DNA from: a virus
Taxonomy: Duplodnaviria; Caudoviricetes
Length of the DNA: 64,000 bases
Virus record (IMG/VR): IMGVR_UViG_3300047160_003616
Location: 12,649 to 76,648 of that record
Reading direction: 5' to 3' (one strand)
How positions within the stretch are numbered: the first letter of the stretch is position 1; each line of letters starts with the position of its first letter. Shown piece after piece: positions 15,920 through 61,239 of the stretch. Under the pieces are notes generated by a model. That model had not been told where the DNA came from. It saw nothing but the letters and a program-made list of their open reading frames with translations, and made no database searches. The position numbers and the translations under genes are program-made.

Positions 15920-16648
15920 CTACGGCATGGTGATGCCGTGTGGCACGATCACGTCGCCCTGGGTCATCAGCAGGGTCTCGAAATCGCTGAAGCTCACATC
16001 GAATTGGCCCCTGCGCCCGAAATCCGGGCCCCAACTGGTCAGACAGGTGACCAGCTGAGTGCTGTAGTTGATACCCAGGGCCAGGTACTCATGTCCCCCG
16101 GCCACGTTCTCATCAGTCAGCGCCCCGATATGCACCAGCCCGGAGGGGTCCGGGTTGAACATAGAGCGCGTCCATAATGTGCCCACCAAACATGGCGTGA
16201 CCTGCAAAGCGGCACGAAATTCAGCGAAGCCGAAACAATGCTGGTATCTGTCGGCCCAATTCAACTCCACGGCGGCCTTAGCTATATCCAATCCATCGCT
16301 GCCCCCATCATGGGGCGGATAAAAATACTCCGGGTCGCCCTCCTCGTGGGTGGCCACCGAGTAGAACTGCAGCGCCAGGGACTCGGTGCACCAACTCACC
16401 TTCTTGGCCCGCCGCACCGGGGCGGCGAAGTCGGTATTAAAAAATCCGGCCATCGCATTGCCGGTGCAGGCGTTGGTGTTCCATTGATTCAAAATTGGCT
16501 GGGTATAAGACCACAGCGTCGTTACGTCACGTGACGGTTTGTCGGCCGCAAAGGCGTAGTTAAGCGAGCGCGTGTCGTGATGGATGTGACGCCCCAACCG
16601 GTAGGGCGCATCGGTGGGCACCGGCAATTTATGAATGATCTCGGCCAT
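15920..16648 (-). CDS. Papain-like (C1A-type) cysteine peptidase
   Basis: Q.N.N.C (catalytic Cys), GGHE (His), TSWG in place of NSWG, GRRGQF. Confidence 0.8.
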   Translation of the reverse strand: MAEIIHKLPVPTDAPYRLGRHIHHDTRSLNYAFAADKPSRDVTTLWSYTQPILNQWNTNACTGNAMAGFFNTDFAAPVRRAKKVSWCTESLALQFYSVATHEEGDPEYFYPPHDGGSDGLDIAKAAVELNWADRYQHCFGFAEFRAALQVTPCLVGTLWTRSMFNPDPSGLVHIGALTDENVAGGHEYLALGINYSTQLVTCLTSWGPDFGRRGQFDVSFSDFETLLMTQGDVIVPHGITMP

Positions 16649-16681
16649 AAAAAACCTCCTCTTCTTCGGAGGAGGTTTTTT
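16649..16681. terminator. Bidirectional intrinsic terminator ending the pentamer array
   Basis: AAAAAA-CCTCCTC-7 nt-GAGGAGG-TTTTTT. Confidence 0.85.
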
Positions 16682-16683
16682 GG

Positions 16684-17372
16684 GTAAAGCCCCTGCCTTG
16701 CCGAGCCCGGCCTAGCCACGCCCAACCTGGCCTTGCCAGGCCTTGCCGAGCCCAGCCTTGCCCGGCCGCGCCGCGCCAAGATCTAGCCTCCTCACCTATT
16801 AGGTGGGGAGATGAAGGTAAAACCCCTGCCCTGCCCCGCCGGGCCGAGCCAGGCCGTGCCCGGCCTTGCCGATGCCGCGCCGCGCCAAGCCACGCCCTGC
16901 CTAGCCATGGCAAGTCTGTTGAAAAATTGAGTTGTGATAAAGCCCCTGCCCTGCCATGCCGCGCCTTGGCTAGGCGAGCCACGCCGTGCCATGCCGTGCC
17001 AAGCCTAGCCACGCCTAGCCGGGCCTAGCCGCGCCGGGCCACGGCCTGCCGAGCCCTGCCATGGCAAGTCTGAAGTTGTGTGTAAAACCCCTGCCCTGCC
17101 TAGCCCAGCCGTGCCGGGCCGAGGCCAGCCACGCCGCGCCTAGCCATGCCAGGCCATGCCTCGCCACGTCAAGTCATGAAATTATTGTTAAAGCCCCTGC
17201 CTTGCCTAGCCTCGACACGCCACGCCCAGGCCCGCCCGGCCATGCCAGGCCTCGCCGAGTCCGTGAAAGATTTGAATTGTAGGTAAAGCCCCTGCCTCGC
17301 CGAGCCGAGCCCCAGCCTTGCCTTGCCTCGCCGTGCCACGCCACGCCATGGCTTGCCAAGCCGCGCCCTGCC
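16684..17372 (-). ncRNA. Array of six GGC-NN pentamer-repeat units (candidate guide RNAs, VIPR-like)
   Basis: Units 17283-17372, 17188-17262, 17082-17175, 16937-17072, 16817-16918, 16684-16788; each about 12-24 GGCNN pentamers ending in GGCAGGGG(C/T)TTTA, separated by AT-rich linkers. Confidence 0.85.
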
Positions 17373-17376
17373 ACGA

Positions 17377-17934
17377 TTATTTGTCGCCGAGCAGCCCTTC
17401 CAGTCGTGTCAGCCGTTCCTGCACTTTATCCAGCTCGGTGGTGGTGTGCTCCTTGGTGCTGCGATGATCCTGCTGAATCAGTTGCATCGCTGCGGCCAAC
17501 TCACGCTGTTGCACGTCCAGGCGGCGGCAGAAGTCCACCTGGGCGGCGAATGCCGCCCCCACCACCTCAAAGGCTTGCCGGGCGATGGGGTCCAGGGCCA
17601 ACCAGTCCACATGAGTCACCGCGTTTTGCCCGCGCACCAGAGCCTTGGAGGACTTGCGCTGATGCCGCCGGGCCAGCCGCATGTGCTCGGGGGCCTGAAG
17701 CACGCGATAACCCGTGTTAATCACCGCGTCAATAGCACGGTTGTCGACACGTTCAAACTCGCGGGCGGCCCGCTGGGTGGCCTGTTGCAGCACCCGGCGA
17801 TCCTTATCCCCGTCGAGACCCAGCGCCTCACCCATCGCCTCGTAGGTCAGTGTCCCATCCACGGGGGTGGTCCTGAGCAGGTCGTAGATGACCCGCCAGC
17901 GGGCTCGCTCGTTGAGCGGGGAGAACGGGCTCAT
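17377..17934 (-). CDS. HTH/coiled-coil accessory protein of the RAMP-pentamer locus
   Basis: LTYEAMGEALG winged-HTH-like segment, C-terminal heptads; ATGA-coupled to the RAMP gene; stop 4 nt before the array. Confidence 0.75.
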   Translation of the reverse strand: MSPFSPLNERARWRVIYDLLRTTPVDGTLTYEAMGEALGLDGDKDRRVLQQATQRAAREFERVDNRAIDAVINTGYRVLQAPEHMRLARRHQRKSSKALVRGQNAVTHVDWLALDPIARQAFEVVGAAFAAQVDFCRRLDVQQRELAAAMQLIQQDHRSTKEHTTTELDKVQERLTRLEGLLGDK

Positions 17935-18506
17935 GACTGCTTGACCCCCATCACCTCAAAGCGACCGTAGAGGGGACGACGCTCGCCCAGTCCGATCAAC
18001 AGCCCCGCCGTGGTGGCGATGCGTTCGATGTCCACCAACTCCAGCAGGGCCGTGTCCAGGGTGCCGTTGACCTCCACCGCCCACTCGGGGAACCACGGGC
18101 GCACTCGCATCACCCGGCTGGCCCCCACCTTGACGCTGGCCCGGTAGTAGAACGTGGCCGCGTACAGCTCCTCGACGGTGCGCGGGCCCTTGTAGCCCAG
18201 CGCGATCACGTCGTCCTTGATCAACACGCCCTGCTCCACCTGCTTGCCCTGTTTGGTCTTGCGACCACCCTCGATCAGGCACTTGAAGATGTTGGCACCG
18301 GGGATATAGGGGCCCTCCACTTCATCGAAGTAGATCCCGCCGAAAAACTCGGTGCGGGCCAGCAGGTGATGGTCCTCGTCGGTCTTGTTGCGTTTTCGGG
18401 TCAGGCGCTTGACCTCTTTGGCCGCGGGATCGAGCGGATCGGCCAGCCGGGCACTGTGCATGATCAGCGGACGGGTTCCCCGAAGGGTGAGGGTGAAATC
18501 AATCAT
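17931..18506 (-). CDS. Stand-alone Cas7/RAMP-like protein (Vipr-like)
   Basis: FTLTLRGTRPLIMH (beta1), PYIPGANIFKCL (RAMP P.IP motif), RVRPWF, C-terminal G-loop AGLLIGLGERRPLYGRFEV. Confidence 0.8.
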   Translation of the reverse strand: MIDFTLTLRGTRPLIMHSARLADPLDPAAKEVKRLTRKRNKTDEDHHLLARTEFFGGIYFDEVEGPYIPGANIFKCLIEGGRKTKQGKQVEQGVLIKDDVIALGYKGPRTVEELYAATFYYRASVKVGASRVMRVRPWFPEWAVEVNGTLDTALLELVDIERIATTAGLLIGLGERRPLYGRFEVMGVKQS

Positions 18507-28735: not shown

Positions 28736-31700
28736 CAGGGCAGTCCTTCCCGGTCGTAGAGATGATCAAGGCGGTCTACATGCTCTAAGCAGCAGCCGTT
28801 GTCCAGGCGCTTGACGGTCAGCGCCACCGGAGCCCCCAGCTGCAATAGGTCTTTGGCCAGCGCCCAGGCCTCGGGGAAGCACACCACCCGGAAGTCGGCC
28901 TCGTTCCACTCCACGGTGATATGCGCCATCTCCGCGCCGGGCGTGCGGCCCGACTTGGTCACGGTGAGCCGGATGTTGGTGAGCTGGCCGCCCACGCAAA
29001 ACTGTTGTCCCCGAGTGAAATTGATCATGTCCATCGGGTCACGTAGGGCCAGCTTGTCCAACGCGGTGACGTAGCGTTCCAGTGGGTCCACGGTGACGTA
29101 AGTGCCCACCAACGTCTTTTCGATCTCATACATCACCTTGGGATCGGCGAAGTCGGGCACCTCGACGCGCCACTGGTCGTTGCCGCTGGCCAGGCGGCGC
29201 TCCACCACGGTGTTCAGCTTGACCGGGTCGACCAGGGTGGAGTCGGCCAGCCCGCGGGCGGCCCGATACCGTGCCAGCCGCCTCAGCATCTCCTCCCGGG
29301 TGCCCATCTCGTTGAAGGCCCCGATGTAGATCAGGTTGACGGCCACGCCCTTGTCAGCCCCGTCCTTGGAGCGCGACAGGTAGTCCTCCAAGGAGGTGTA
29401 CGGCCGGGCGGCCATGATGCCCTTGCAGGAGGCCGCGCCCACCCCGCGCACGGTGTCCAGCCCGTAGCGGATGTCGTCGCCCTCGATGGTGAATTTGGGC
29501 TCGCTCTTGTTGATGTCAGGCGGCAGGATGGTGATCTTGCGCCGCCGGGCCTCGCGCACGTAGCTGTTGATGTGCTTGGCGTCGGTGGCCATCAGCGCCA
29601 CCAGGAACTCCTGCGGATAGTAGAACTTCAGCCAGATCTCCCAGGTGGCGATGAACGCCCCGTACTCCACGGCGTGGCTCCAGTTGAAGGCGTAGCGCCC
29701 GGACGCCTCGATGGAGGTCCAGATCTTCTCGGCGATCCTGGTGGCCTCGGCCTCGTCTAGCGCCTTGGAGTTCTGGTAGTGGGTGAACTCCCAGTTGGCC
29801 AGGCAGCCGGTGAGGAACTTCTCCTTGAGCGCCACCAGCTGGTCCATGTACTTCTTGCCCACCGCGGTGCGCACGTCATCGGCTTCATCGGCGGTGAAGG
29901 AGGCCAGCAGCTGCACGGCCTCCATGATCTGTTCCTGGTAGACCAGGATGCCGAAGGTGTTGGTGGACCAGCCCGGCCCTACGATGCGCTCCATCAACGG
30001 GTGGTCGTAGAGCACCGGTTCCAGCGCCGCACGGCGGCGCAGGTAGGTCTCCTTGAGCCCGGCGTCGGCCACGCCGGGCCGGATGATGGAGGTGAGATCG
30101 GCGATGTCGCGGTGGCTTTGAGGCTTGAACTCGATGCAGGCCTGGGTGCAGTTGGAGGTCTCTACCTGGAAGATACCCAAGGTCTGGCCGTCGGCGAGCT
30201 GTGGCCAAATGTCCGGGTCGGTGAAGTGCTCGTCGCCGAAGGTGAGCACATTGGTGCAGCCCTTGGGCACCGAGAGCCCGGTGCGGTCGAAGTCGATCCA
30301 CACCCCGTGGCGCTCATAGATCAAGCGGCGGGCGCGGGAAATGGTGTCCAGATGGCGCAAGCCCAGCCAGTCGAACTTCACCCCGCCCAGGCGCTCCACG
30401 TCGTGCATGTCCAGCTGGGTGGTCGCGCCTTTGGTCGGGGAGTCCCGTAGTGGCACCCGGCCCAGGATGGGCTCAGCGGAGATCAGGATGCCCGAGGGGT
30501 GCACCCCGGAGTGCCGGGCCAGCCCGGTCAGCTCACCCATGAACTGAAACACCTTGGGGTACTTGGCCGCATAGGGAGCCAGCGCATGGCCCTTGCGCTC
30601 CACCAGCTCGGTGTAGGTCAGCTCCTCCTCGTCGGGGTTGTTGGGGTCCTTGAGCCGCTCCACCTCCTCGATGTGCTTGGAGATGGCGTCAACATCCAGA
30701 CGACCCTCGGTGGTCTCGGAGACCTTGTAGGCCCGGGCCAGATCGCGCAGCGTGGCCTTGGGCCCGCTGCGGTTGAAAGTCCCGATGGCACAGACATTCT
30801 CCTCGCCGTAGCGCTTGCGCAGATACTTCAACACCAGCGGGCGCTCGGACTGCGGCACGTCCACGTCGATGTCGGGCAGGCCTTTGCGGCCGGGGGAAAG
30901 GAACCGGGAAAACAGCGTGCCGTATTTGAGCGGGTCGATCAGGGTGATGTTGGTCAGGTAGGCCACCAGACACCCCCCGGCCGACCCGCGGCCGGGGCCC
31001 ACCAACAAGGGCTCCTTGATCGCTCCCTTTTTGACGAACTGCGACCAGGAACCCGAGCGGAAGGCCATCGCCGAGTCGCGCACGATGTTGAAGTAGCCCG
31101 CGAAGTGCCGGTCGCGGATCAGCTTCAGCTCCTCCTCTAGCCGGGCCAGATAGGGCCCTTGGTCGAGTCCCTCATCCACCACGTAGCGCTGAAAACCCTC
31201 CCCGCAGGCCGCCACCAGGGAGGCGAAGTCCTCGTCCTCGCTGACGGCCAGCCGCGGCATGCTCATGGTGGGCTGGATCGTGACGTGGCACTGGGTGGCG
31301 ATGTCGGCGGAGTTCTTGATGGCCTCGGCGATCACCTCGGCCGGGATGCCGTGTTTGCCCATCCACAGATAGATCTCGTCCTCGCCCATCAGGTGATCGG
31401 CGATCTGGCTCATGGTGGCCAACGTGCTGCGCATCTTGTCGGAGTCCTCGCCGGTGTTGAACAACCACACCAACTCCTTGTTGATCCACTTCTCCGGGGC
31501 GGCGTGATGGGAGTCGTTGACCACCACCATCGGCACCGACATCTCTTGGGCGAAGCGCATTTTGGCGTGATTGAGGCGGCGCATCTTGGCGTTCATCGCC
31601 ATGTGCTCAGGCTTGGAGTCGTTCATGTACTGCCAGGTATGCAACTCGATAAAAAATCGGTCCCGGTAGATGTGGCGCAGCGTGCCCAGCAGTTGGCGGG

Positions 31701-32184
31701 CGGTGTCCTCCTGGCCGTCCTGGATGGCCTCGTAGAACTGGGTCATCATGCAGCCATCGGAGGCCCAGATGCCCTCGGCGTACTTGGCCAGCAGCTCGGG
31801 GGTGGCGATGGGTTTGTAGTCGAAGTACGGGGCCTGATAGGCCTCGCTCGACAGCGCCCACAGATTGGACAGGCCCTCGTTAGTCATCGCCAGCAGGCAC
31901 AGGTGACTGGGCGAGGGACGGCGCAGCTTGCCCTTCTGCTTCCGATGCCAGGCCACCTGCTCACCGAACATCCAGTAACCTTCAATCCCCGGGACGAACC
32001 CAAGACCCGCCGCGCCCGCGGCGCGGCTCATGGCCAGGTGCTGGTTGCACTCGCCGTGATCAGTGAGCGCGACATGGCTCATGCCCAGGGCCACGGCGCG
32101 GTCGACCACCTCCTGGACCCGGGCCTCCCCGTCGAGGAAGGAGCCCTCGGTGTGCTGGTGGAAATTGACTTGCAGAGTCATCAC
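28735..32184 (-). CDS. dnaE: DNA polymerase III alpha subunit
   Basis: PHP motifs H.HT..S.LDG, TDHG, NDSH; GPGRGSAGG; PDIDVD; C-terminal OB fold; no obvious intein. Confidence 0.95.
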   Translation of the reverse strand: MMTLQVNFHQHTEGSFLDGEARVQEVVDRAVALGMSHVALTDHGECNQHLAMSRAAGAAGLGFVPGIEGYWMFGEQVAWHRKQKGKLRRPSPSHLCLLAMTNEGLSNLWALSSEAYQAPYFDYKPIATPELLAKYAEGIWASDGCMMTQFYEAIQDGQEDTARQLLGTLRHIYRDRFFIELHTWQYMNDSKPEHMAMNAKMRRLNHAKMRFAQEMSVPMVVVNDSHHAAPEKWINKELVWLFNTGEDSDKMRSTLATMSQIADHLMGEDEIYLWMGKHGIPAEVIAEAIKNSADIATQCHVTIQPTMSMPRLAVSEDEDFASLVAACGEGFQRYVVDEGLDQGPYLARLEEELKLIRDRHFAGYFNIVRDSAMAFRSGSWSQFVKKGAIKEPLLVGPGRGSAGGCLVAYLTNITLIDPLKYGTLFSRFLSPGRKGLPDIDVDVPQSERPLVLKYLRKRYGEENVCAIGTFNRSGPKATLRDLARAYKVSETTEGRLDVDAISKHIEEVERLKDPNNPDEEELTYTELVERKGHALAPYAAKYPKVFQFMGELTGLARHSGVHPSGILISAEPILGRVPLRDSPTKGATTQLDMHDVERLGGVKFDWLGLRHLDTISRARRLIYERHGVWIDFDRTGLSVPKGCTNVLTFGDEHFTDPDIWPQLADGQTLGIFQVETSNCTQACIEFKPQSHRDIADLTSIIRPGVADAGLKETYLRRRAALEPVLYDHPLMERIVGPGWSTNTFGILVYQEQIMEAVQLLASFTADEADDVRTAVGKKYMDQLVALKEKFLTGCLANWEFTHYQNSKALDEAEATRIAEKIWTSIEASGRYAFNWSHAVEYGAFIATWEIWLKFYYPQEFLVALMATDAKHINSYVREARRRKITILPPDINKSEPKFTIEGDDIRYGLDTVRGVGAASCKGIMAARPYTSLEDYLSRSKDGADKGVAVNLIYIGAFNEMGTREEMLRRLARYRAARGLADSTLVDPVKLNTVVERRLASGNDQWRVEVPDFADPKVMYEIEKTLVGTYVTVDPLERYVTALDKLALRDPMDMINFTRGQQFCVGGQLTNIRLTVTKSGRTPGAEMAHITVEWNEADFRVVCFPEAWALAKDLLQLGAPVALTVKRLDNGCCLEHVDRLDHLYDREGLP

Positions 32185-32684
32185 TGCGTGACAGGGATAG
32201 GGAGTCCCTCGGAAAGAGACTCATCGAGGCGGCGAAGCTGGTCTCGGGTCATCACGTAGCAATCGCCGTGCCCGACATTTTTGAGGTTGGCCGGGGTGAT
32301 GAAATCCCCAGACCGCACCCAGCCCAGCAAGGTGACTTCGGCACCGCACACCAGGGCCAGCACGTAGAGATCGCAGGAGTCGACCTGCTTCCAGCGCGGG
32401 GCGATCAGCCGGTGGTCGGAGTGGGTCACCGCCTTGATGTCCACCCGCACCCCGTCATGCAGCACGTCATAGGAATGCGCCGTGGCCGGGGCGGTGAGAT
32501 CGGGGAAGACGTTGGCCCACTTGGCGTAGGCGATCTCGGCGGTGACCCCGGCCACCTTGTCCCCGAACGGGTCGGGGGAGAAGTGCGGGTCGGTCAGCTT
32601 GGCCGCCGCACAGGCGAGTTCACGGTAGGCGGCGATCATCCGCACACACGCCAGTTCGCCGGGGTCCAGACTGATCGTGACCAT
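32181..32684 (-). CDS. Hypothetical protein, nuclease-like (YD....VDIK)
   Basis: 167 aa; possible PD-(D/E)xK fold. Confidence 0.6.
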   Translation of the reverse strand: MVTISLDPGELACVRMIAAYRELACAAAKLTDPHFSPDPFGDKVAGVTAEIAYAKWANVFPDLTAPATAHSYDVLHDGVRVDIKAVTHSDHRLIAPRWKQVDSCDLYVLALVCGAEVTLLGWVRSGDFITPANLKNVGHGDCYVMTRDQLRRLDESLSEGLPIPVTQ

Positions 32685-61094: not shown

Positions 61095-61153
61095 GGCTGG
61101 GCCAGGCTGGACATGACCAGGCGGGGCCTGGCAAGGCAAGGCAAGGGTTTTAC
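61095..61153 (+). ncRNA. Orphan GGC-NN pentamer unit (seventh copy)
   Basis: 10 pentamers ending GGCAA-GGGTTTTAC; TAAAAT at 61079-84 upstream. Confidence 0.7.
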
Positions 61154-61239
61154 TTCAGCTGATTCATGCCCTGAATCCATCTCCAAATCACATAGAGCAA
61201 TACACAGAGGCCGATGATGACGGCGATCAGGGTGAGCAT
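61150..61239 (-). CDS. 29 aa membrane peptide
   Basis: MLTLIAVIIGLCVLLYVIWRWIQGMNQLK. Confidence 0.45.
   Translation of the reverse strand: MLTLIAVIIGLCVLLYVIWRWIQGMNQLK

What the first reader, a model, noticed from the sequence alone, without database searches (positions are those of the whole stretch)
16937..17072. Unit D dinucleotide code spells a phage exonuclease motif when every third base is skipped
Seen: the plus-strand NN series (complement of the RNA) is CT CT AT GC TT TA GA AC GT AT GT AA TA AC TA GG TA GC GG AC CT GA CT AT. As codon positions 1-2 this reads L L I A (F/L) Y (D/E) T V (I/M) V (N/K) Y T Y G Y A G T L (D/E) L (I/M). Established: E..V.N..YGYAGTLDLI is a typical motif of phage PD-(D/E)xK (RecE/Cas4-like) exonucleases. 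Inference: the guide pairs with a coding strand two bases at a time and skips wobble positions, so synonymous mutation cannot escape it. The window's own exonuclease has HVRGRIDWI here, so the target would be foreign.
Basis: partly seen in the sequence, partly recalled or inferred. Interest (0 to 1): 0.93.

Follow-up and report, generated by a model that had tools for sequence, protein, structure and literature searches.

The report
VIPR guide RNA targeting rival exonuclease

Summary
In strict 5-nt register, unit D (16946-17070) gives exactly the reported dinucleotide series. Read as codon positions 1-2, units 9-24 match 16 consecutive residues (VIVNYTYGYAGTLDLI) of a metagenomic RecE-type exonuclease. 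Units 7-24 match 17/18 at protein level. In 15 soil-metagenome contigs they match up to 16/18 at DNA level, in frame, with the skipped bases varying. Shuffled orders reach at most 11/25. A composition model expects about 3e-9 such runs in 1.7e12 sites. The six units next to the conserved tail do not match.

The locus is a VIPR system (bioRxiv 10.64898/2026.04.26.720920, .720927, 2026.10.15.759431). The 191-aa protein matches the solved SUSP1 Vipr protein (PDB 36pp, E=1e-32). A vap-like gene and six GGC-NN vrRNAs with an invariant GGCAGGGGYUUUA tail follow it.

Unit F independently spells a motif of the neighbouring peptidase-like gene family and fits relatives better than the phage's own copy. 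Units A, B, C and E have no target found.

This scan has met VIPR loci before on much other DNA (499 notes, at least 342 genomes). Verdict: a new member of a known kind.

The parts
17931..18506 (-). vipr gene (191 aa, RAMP/Cas7-like Vipr protein)
   Evidence: phmmer against PDB: 36pp 'SUSP1 Vipr protein', E=9.9e-33 over residues 6-186. phrog_4652, E=5e-51. H17, K33 and R136 (=SUSP1 R138) are conserved; the G-loop reads GERRP where SUSP2 has GDWRP. 2315 representatives in the 50%-identity library.
17377..17934 (-). vap-like accessory gene (185 aa), overlapping vipr by ATGA
   Evidence: BLASTP E=1e-14 to Gordonia phage MakoManhole gp77, annotated 'DNA binding protein', at the same position. E=3e-4 to the gene following vipr in phage SUSP2. 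phrog_5926.
16946..17070 (-). vrRNA D repeat tract: 25 pentamers (RNA sense GGC-NN; five units deviate from GGY)
   Evidence: Strict 5-nt parse; sequence.
16976..17065 (-). Units 7-24 of D: the segment that spells E.VIVNYTYGYAGTLDLI of RecE-type exonuclease genes with the wobble base skipped
   Evidence: 17/18 in P0104 and P0423. 16/18 NN and 33/36 bases in metagenome contig L017. Every decoded state occurs in the family at its column.
16939..16950 (-). Invariant 3' tail motif of vrRNA D (RNA GGCAGGGGCUUU), shared by all six units
   Evidence: Alignment of the six tails: GGCAGGGG-UUUA is invariant and the rest diverges.
17292..17371 (-). vrRNA A repeat tract (16 units, one 6-nt unit); no target found
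17197..17261 (-). vrRNA B repeat tract (13 units); no target found
17091..17175 (-). vrRNA C repeat tract (17 units); no target found
16826..16916 (-). vrRNA E repeat tract (18 units, one 6-nt unit); no target found
16693..16777 (-). vrRNA F repeat tract (17 units), spelling a motif of the neighbouring peptidase-like gene family
   Evidence: BLOSUM scan of the own genome: 65 against a null of 37.9 +/- 3.2. 13/17 in homologues P0122 and P0154, null maximum 10. 11/17 at DNA level in IMG/VR homologues, null maximum 9.
16655..16672 (-). Terminator-like hairpin plus U-run that closes the vipr-vap-vrRNA block
16208..16258 (-). Own-genome site resembling the unit F target, inside the 242-aa peptidase-like gene (15920-16648); only 10/17 NN match
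   Evidence: 59% is below the papers' 80% threshold, which is consistent with avoiding self-targeting.

Best explanation
Unit D is a VIPR guide RNA (vrRNA) of a type II-like VIPR locus (vipr, vap, six vrRNAs) in a 76.6-kb actinophage-like genome.

By analogy with the SUSP1 system, Vipr protomers would polymerise along the RNA, one per GGC-NN repeat. They bury each GGC and present the NN dinucleotides. These pair with two bases of a double-stranded DNA target while every third target base is flipped out.

In unit D the 18 tail-distal repeats are complementary to codon positions 1-2 of the conserved strand that carries the catalytic Glu and Asp (E...GYAGTLDLI). This strand belongs to a RecE-type, RecT-linked exonuclease gene of other actinobacterial phages and prophages. 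Synonymous changes therefore cannot break the match, and non-synonymous escape would damage the active site.

The likely outcome is transcriptional silencing of the rival's exonuclease-recT operon during co-infection, or on infection of a lysogen.

Shown here: the repeat anatomy, Vipr homology, the in-frame gapped match and its significance, and the absence of a self target.

Inferred from the papers: filament formation, dsDNA binding and repression.
For: - Vipr homology to a solved structure, conserved contact residues (against residues named), and a vap-like neighbour.
- The same vipr, partner gene and GGY-NN array module occurs in Gordonia, Pseudomonas and Felix O1-like phages, including the SUSP clade studied experimentally.
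- Unit D match: 5 tblastn hits, all in annotated exonuclease genes next to recT. A run of 16, and 19/25, in P0104. Shuffles reach at most 11. 15 metagenome contigs match in frame with varying wobble bases. About 3e-9 exact 16-runs are expected in 1.7e12 sites.
- Independent replication: unit F matches the neighbouring peptidase-like gene family in frame.
- No self match for D and no homologue of the target family in the genome.
- The published rule, target logic and active-site targeting agree.
Against: - No sequence in the searched collections reaches the papers' 80% NN criterion over all 25 units. The best are 76% at protein level and 68% at DNA level. The criterion is met only if the six tail-proximal units are set aside after the fact.
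- Five units of D deviate from GGY: RNA GCC at units 5, 6, 20 and 24, and GAC at unit 25. Two of these lie inside the matching segment.
- 25 repeats exceeds the 9-16 reported for the studied clades.
- The G-loop has E-R where SUSP1 has D177-W178, which contact G1 and G2.
- Expression, processing and binding of this RNA were not testable here.
- Four of the six units have no identified target.
Confidence: 0.9

Rival explanations
1. The resemblance to an exonuclease motif is chance. With 2-letter codes, any series decodes to some peptide, and a reader can recall a motif to fit it.
For: Every dinucleotide series gives an 'open' decode. BLAST E-values for the 24-mer were only 0.2-3. hmmscan of the peptide against Pfam found nothing.
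Against: 16 consecutive residues and 19/25 match, against shuffle maxima of 6 and 11. Per-site probability is about 1.8e-21. The DNA-level matches are in frame. Four other decoded units gave no tblastn hit at E<=10, which shows that such hits are not routine. Unit F replicates the result independently.
Confidence: 0.01
2. The guide acts on RNA: it is antisense to the exonuclease mRNA and blocks or destroys the transcript rather than binding DNA.
For: Both units with identified targets (D and F) are complementary to the coding strand, so they would also pair with mRNA. Only two cases are known, and under random strand choice the chance that both fall this way is 0.25.
Against: For the homologous SUSP1 system, dsDNA binding, strand-independent repression and an R-loop triplex structure are reported. 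Natural targets there lie on both strands.
Confidence: 0.05
3. The tract is a sequence-independent protein-binding or sponge RNA, resembling TRAP sites (GAG-NN with 5-nt period). The NN would be mere spacers. This was my initial working idea.
For: The 5-nt period has a fixed triplet and two variable bases. Some related arrays are of low complexity, for example GGCAC x4 in phage Trine.
Against: The NN series of D and F carry specific in-frame gene information. The adjacent protein is a Vipr homologue, not a TRAP-like protein.
Confidence: 0.02

Closest known systems
Type II VIPR system of Escherichia phage SUSP1 (Vipr + vap1 + vrRNAs; bioRxiv 10.64898/2026.04.26.720920, 10.64898/2026.04.26.720927, 10.64898/2026.10.15.759431; PDB 36pp)
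   Same: - Homologous Vipr protein (E=1e-32).
- vipr followed by a small gene that is annotated or predicted as DNA-binding in its homologues.
- vrRNAs made of GGY-NN pentamers followed by an invariant 3' tail.
- A target read with a 1-nt skip aligned to the wobble position.
- The target is a conserved catalytic-core segment of a rival element's gene.
- No self-target at 80% or above.
   Different: - Actinophage-like, 64% GC genome.
- GGC is almost exclusive, rather than GGY.
- All six vrRNAs lie downstream, and none was detected upstream of vipr.
- Unit D has 25 repeats, against 9-16 reported.
- The tail is a short GGCAGGGGYUUUA motif plus a variable AU-rich stretch; no pseudoknot has been shown.
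- The G-loop is GERRP where SUSP2 has GDWRP.
- The target class, a RecE-type exonuclease, is not mentioned in the main text of the two papers searched for it.
Class 1 CRISPR backbone (Cas7 filament on crRNA)
   Same: A RAMP-fold protein polymerises on a guide RNA, and a thumb interrupts the guide-target duplex periodically (as stated in the paper).
   Different: - There is no CRISPR array, no cas1/cas2 and no spacer-repeat architecture.
- The period is 5 nt on the guide and 3 nt on the target, instead of 6 and 6.
- Pairing is two bases at a time.
TRAP binding sites in the Bacillus trp leader (GAG/UAG triplets with 2-3-nt spacers)
   Same: A fixed triplet plus a variable dinucleotide with about 5-nt period, bound one protein subunit per repeat (from general knowledge).
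   Different: In TRAP sites the spacers carry no information. Here the NN carry the target code, and the proteins are unrelated.

Membership tests
VIPR system | Vipr protein: a stand-alone RAMP homologue of about 20 kDa | tested here: met
   191 aa. phmmer E=9.9e-33 to PDB 36pp 'SUSP1 Vipr protein', covering residues 6-186. 36% identity to the SUSP2 orthologue.
VIPR system | Residues reported to hold GGY and the skipped base (SUSP1 H17, K33, R138, D177, W178, R179) | tested here: inconclusive
   H17, K33, R136 (=R138) and R177 (=R179) are conserved. D177 is replaced by E and W178 by R. The change may be compatible with function, but this was not tested.
VIPR system | vrRNAs of tandem GGY-NN pentamers followed by an invariant 3' tail, on the vipr strand | tested here: met
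   Six units of 13-25 pentamers on the minus strand. Each ends in GGCAGGGGYUUUA. Nothing similar is in Rfam.
VIPR system | Natural target obeying the 1-nt skip rule, with skips at wobble positions and at least 80% NN match | tested here: inconclusive
   The rule and the phase are met. Match is 89-94% over units 7-24, but only 68% (DNA) to 76% (protein) over all 25 units.
VIPR system | No self-target at 80% or above in the source genome | tested here: met
   The best own-genome matches are D 9/25 and F 10/17. Only F is above the shuffle level, and it stands at 59%.
VIPR type II | vap gene encoding a predicted DNA-binding protein directly after vipr | tested here: met
   The 185-aa gene overlaps vipr. 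It is homologous to MakoManhole gp77 'DNA binding protein' (E=1e-14) and weakly to the SUSP2 gene at the same position (E=3e-4). The fold was not modelled.
VIPR system | vrRNAs expressed, processed and co-purifying with Vipr; RNP binds gapped dsDNA targets | not testable with these tools
CRISPR-Cas | Repeat-spacer array and adaptation genes | tested here: not met
   The region has no direct repeats of CRISPR type. The neighbouring genes are phage genes of unknown function.

The most novel reading that the evidence does not exclude
This actinophage VIPR locus uses an unusually long, two-part vrRNA. Its 18 tail-distal repeats silence the catalytic-core codons of the RecE-type exonuclease (recET module) of rival actinobacterial phages or prophages, a target class not named in the two VIPR papers whose main text I searched for it. 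The six tail-proximal repeats would serve another role, such as a spacer or a second target. Its last vrRNA (F) and the adjacent recoded peptidase-like gene would form a linked weapon-and-antidote pair directed at close relatives.
Probability: 0.35. Interest if true: 0.5.

Novelty: new member of a known kind. Interest (0 to 1): 0.35.

Why it matters
The result confirms, on an unrelated GC-rich actinophage, that the VIPR gapped code can be read straight from sequence. It also shows that such a guide can aim at the active-site codons of a widely shared recombination gene.

This adds a concrete predicted target (the recET exonuclease) and a host group, actinobacterial phages, including relatives found in Mycobacterium, Gordonia and Rhodococcus (pro)phages. 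These can be tested with laboratory mycobacteriophage and Gordonia systems.

It does not reveal a new principle. The mechanism, the wobble logic and active-site targeting were published in 2026, and this scan has met hundreds of VIPR loci.

Tried and rejected
- **TRAP-like sponge RNA.** This was my first idea. I dropped it after the target matches and the Vipr homology.
- **Pfam hmmscan of decoded peptides:** no hit, uninformative for 24-mers.
- **Exact 13-codon pattern in IMG/VR:** 0 hits.
- **Relaxed 26-base pattern in GTDB genome contigs:** 0 hits. The same pattern gave 15 hits in JGI metagenomes.
- **megablast of the locus against phages:** no match.
- **Units A, B, C and E:**
  - no tblastn hit in 'phages' at E<=10, using one residue choice per ambiguous position;
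  - nothing above shuffles in the own genome;
  - nothing above shuffles in 120 exonuclease homologues, 120 peptidase homologues or 550 kb of IMG/VR loci.
a run of 5, within the shuffle range.
- **RNA-sense decoding of all units against the own genome:** nothing.
- **Guides from five related loci and from L025, scanned against 0.8 Mb of fetched DNA:** nothing clear.
- **Trine's single regular array against its own genome:** nothing.

Full report
**What is in the sequence**

The 728-bp gap between two minus-strand genes (16649-17376) holds six units. On the plus strand each begins with AAA(G/A)CCCCTGCC and continues as NNGCC pentamers. All flanking genes are on the minus strand. The RNA sense is therefore (GGC-NN)n followed by GGCAGGGG(C/U)UUUA. 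A terminator-like hairpin at 16655-16672 closes the block. Rfam has no family for this region.

The first CT is part of the motif shared by all units.

**Is the decode more than chance?**

Any dinucleotide series decodes to some peptide, so only matches to real genes count.

- **Annotated phages.** All lie inside annotated exonuclease genes next to recT: Gordonia phage Frokostdame gp57 (13/14), M. abscessus prophage prophiT36-2a gp11, and Rhodococcus phage Sleepyhead gp51.
- **Negative comparison.** The decodes of units A, B, C and E gave no hit at all at E<=10.
- **Metagenomic homologues.** Among 164 homologues from the 5.8-billion-protein collection, the best (P0104) reads LDPILVEVVIVNYTYGYAGTLDLIA. 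That is 19 of 25 units, with 16 consecutive.
- **Shuffles.** 200 shuffles of the unit order, scored against every fourth of the 120 homologues from the first search, never exceeded 11/25 or a run of 6.
- **Composition model.** Using codon-position-1-2 frequencies from actinophage ORFs, the exact 16-run has probability about 1.8e-21 per site. That gives about 3e-9 expected occurrences in 1.7e12 sites.
- **DNA level.** A relaxed gapped pattern found 15 JGI soil-metagenome contigs. All match in frame at 15-17 of 25 units. Wobble bases differ between contigs (GGA/GGC, CTC/CTG/CTA, GAC/GAT, AAC/AAT, ATC/ATT), while positions 1-2 stay fixed.

The matching part is units 7-24:

- 17/18 in P0104 and P0423.
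- 16/18 units and 33/36 bases in L017.
- Every decoded state is seen in the family at its column.

Units 2-4 and 6, next to the tail, essentially never match the family. Unit 5 matches only as an amino acid.

**What the target is**

The family is phrog_298 'exonuclease' (E=1e-38). In three annotated phages it sits in front of recT. The targeted stretch contains the invariant Glu and the Asp of GTLDL, followed downstream by DLKT. From general knowledge, this is the usual layout of PD-(D/E)xK nuclease motifs.

It belongs to a Cas4-like family, phrog_2506. tblastn of P0104 against the 76.6-kb genome finds nothing. The target is therefore foreign.

**What the system is**

The 191-aa protein upstream has homologues in 130 phage records. 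These include Gordonia, Pseudomonas and Felix O1-like coliphages. In every locus I opened, the gene is followed by a second small gene and flanked by GGY-NN pentamer tracts.

A literature search then found that this is the VIPR system.

- **Discovery paper.** It describes Vipr (an ancestral RAMP), vap accessory genes and vrRNAs of alternating GGY/NN. [quoted passage not shown]
- **Structural paper.** One Vipr protomer binds per repeat. GGY is sequestered and N4N5 pair with target N1N2. The skipped base sits in a pocket, and an R-loop triplex forms.
- **Third paper.** A SUSP1 guide on the active-site codons of a satellite recombinase blocks mutational escape.

The window's protein matches the solved SUSP1 Vipr chain (PDB 36pp) at E=9.9e-33. 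H17, K33, R136 (=R138) and R177 (=R179) are conserved. The G-loop reads GERRP where SUSP2 has GDWRP. The 185-aa partner is homologous to a 'DNA binding protein' at the same position in phage MakoManhole. It is weakly similar to the SUSP2 gene at that position, which fits type II.

**Independent replication inside the locus**

A gapped scan of the phage's own genome with all six units found one signal above shuffles. Unit F matches 10/17 units, in frame, inside the adjacent 242-aa peptidase-like gene at 16208-16258.

- With substitution scoring the match scores 65, against 37.9 +/- 3.2 for shuffles.
- Homologues of that gene match better than the phage's own copy. P0122 (85% identical overall) and P0154 reach 13/17, against a null maximum of 10.
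- The own copy differs from those relatives at two adjacent guide-matching codons (D-Q in the relatives, A-E here).
- At DNA level, IMG/VR homologues reach 11/17, against a null maximum of 9.

This looks like a guide aimed at relatives, with the carrier's own allele below the 80% threshold. None of the matches reaches 80% either.

**Most likely mechanism**

Vipr polymerises on vrRNA D. The complex scans double-stranded DNA and locks onto the exonuclease gene of a co-infecting phage or resident prophage through 18 dinucleotide contacts spaced by one base. This blocks transcription of the exonuclease-recT operon.

The anatomy, homology and target match are shown here. Filament formation, DNA binding and repression are inferred from the SUSP1 work. 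Whether the target is a lytic competitor or a prophage is unknown.

**Reservations**

- No sequence matches at least 80% of all 25 units.
- Five units of D are not GGY.
- 25 repeats is longer than the 9-16 reported.
- Four units have no target.

**Verdict**

- Observation: confirmed.
- Kind: already published. This is a new member with a plausible new target class.
- This scan has noted VIPR loci on much other DNA (499 notes in at least 342 genomes).

Noticed in passing
window 16693-16777 (unit F) and 16208-16258 (minus strand): Unit F spells DRY.HCF.F..FRAA of the adjacent peptidase-like gene family (phrog_16701; some homologues carry Pfam PF00112). It fits relatives (13/17) better than the phage's own copy (10/17 at DNA level). 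This suggests a guide against close relatives, with a recoded own allele.
   Followed up: partly
window 61095-61156 (RNA sense on the plus strand): A seventh, isolated unit lies 44 kb from the locus. It has ten GGY-NN-type pentamers ending in the same tail type (plus-strand RNA ...GGCAAGGGUUUUAC). It may be a solo vrRNA. No target was found in the fetched DNA (best 6/10, within shuffles).
   Followed up: partly
L002 2966-3030 and 3090-3150; L003 3575-3625, 3700-3752, 3789-3857: In Gordonia phages MakoManhole and Trine, each pentamer tract is followed by a tRNA-like minihelix: an acceptor-like stem plus a GGTTCGACTCC T-arm. ARAGORN calls one of them tRNA-???. The word tRNA does not occur in the VIPR discovery paper's main text. 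These may be RNase P/Z processing signals or the clade's tail. The fold energy is not better than that of shuffles.
   Followed up: partly
L003 3591-3890 (Trine gene 40, record 31440-32243): The annotated 267-aa ORF of Trine gene 40 runs through the vrRNA and tRNA-like region. The real start is probably near L003 3889 (ATGAGCACG).
   Followed up: no
L025 760-1725 (IMGVR_UViG_3300036784_000146, 143.6-kb contig): About 1 kb of back-to-back units of about 49 nt, each with 8-12 GGY-NN pentamers, separated only by GGCAGGC. They lie about 1.8 kb upstream of a homologue (50% identity) of the window's peptidase-like gene. This resembles the 'staggered arrays' mentioned in the VIPR paper.
   Followed up: partly
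L001 3459-3646; L002 1694-1753; L005 2695-2881: Related loci also carry pentamer tracts upstream of vipr, as reported for SUSP1. The window's locus has none upstream of 18506.
   Followed up: no
window 16649-16685: The terminator-like hairpin after unit F contains GGAGG 7 nt before the ATG of the peptidase-like gene. The gene's ribosome-binding site would therefore sit inside the hairpin stem.
   Followed up: no
window 16686-17376, all units: The NN composition is AT-rich for a 64% GC genome: TT 10, TA 9 and AT 9 of 100, against CC 2 and TG 1. It does not resemble average codon position 1-2 usage (TA is 1.4% there). Guides seem to favour unusual, motif-rich stretches or to avoid creating out-of-register GGC.
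   Followed up: partly
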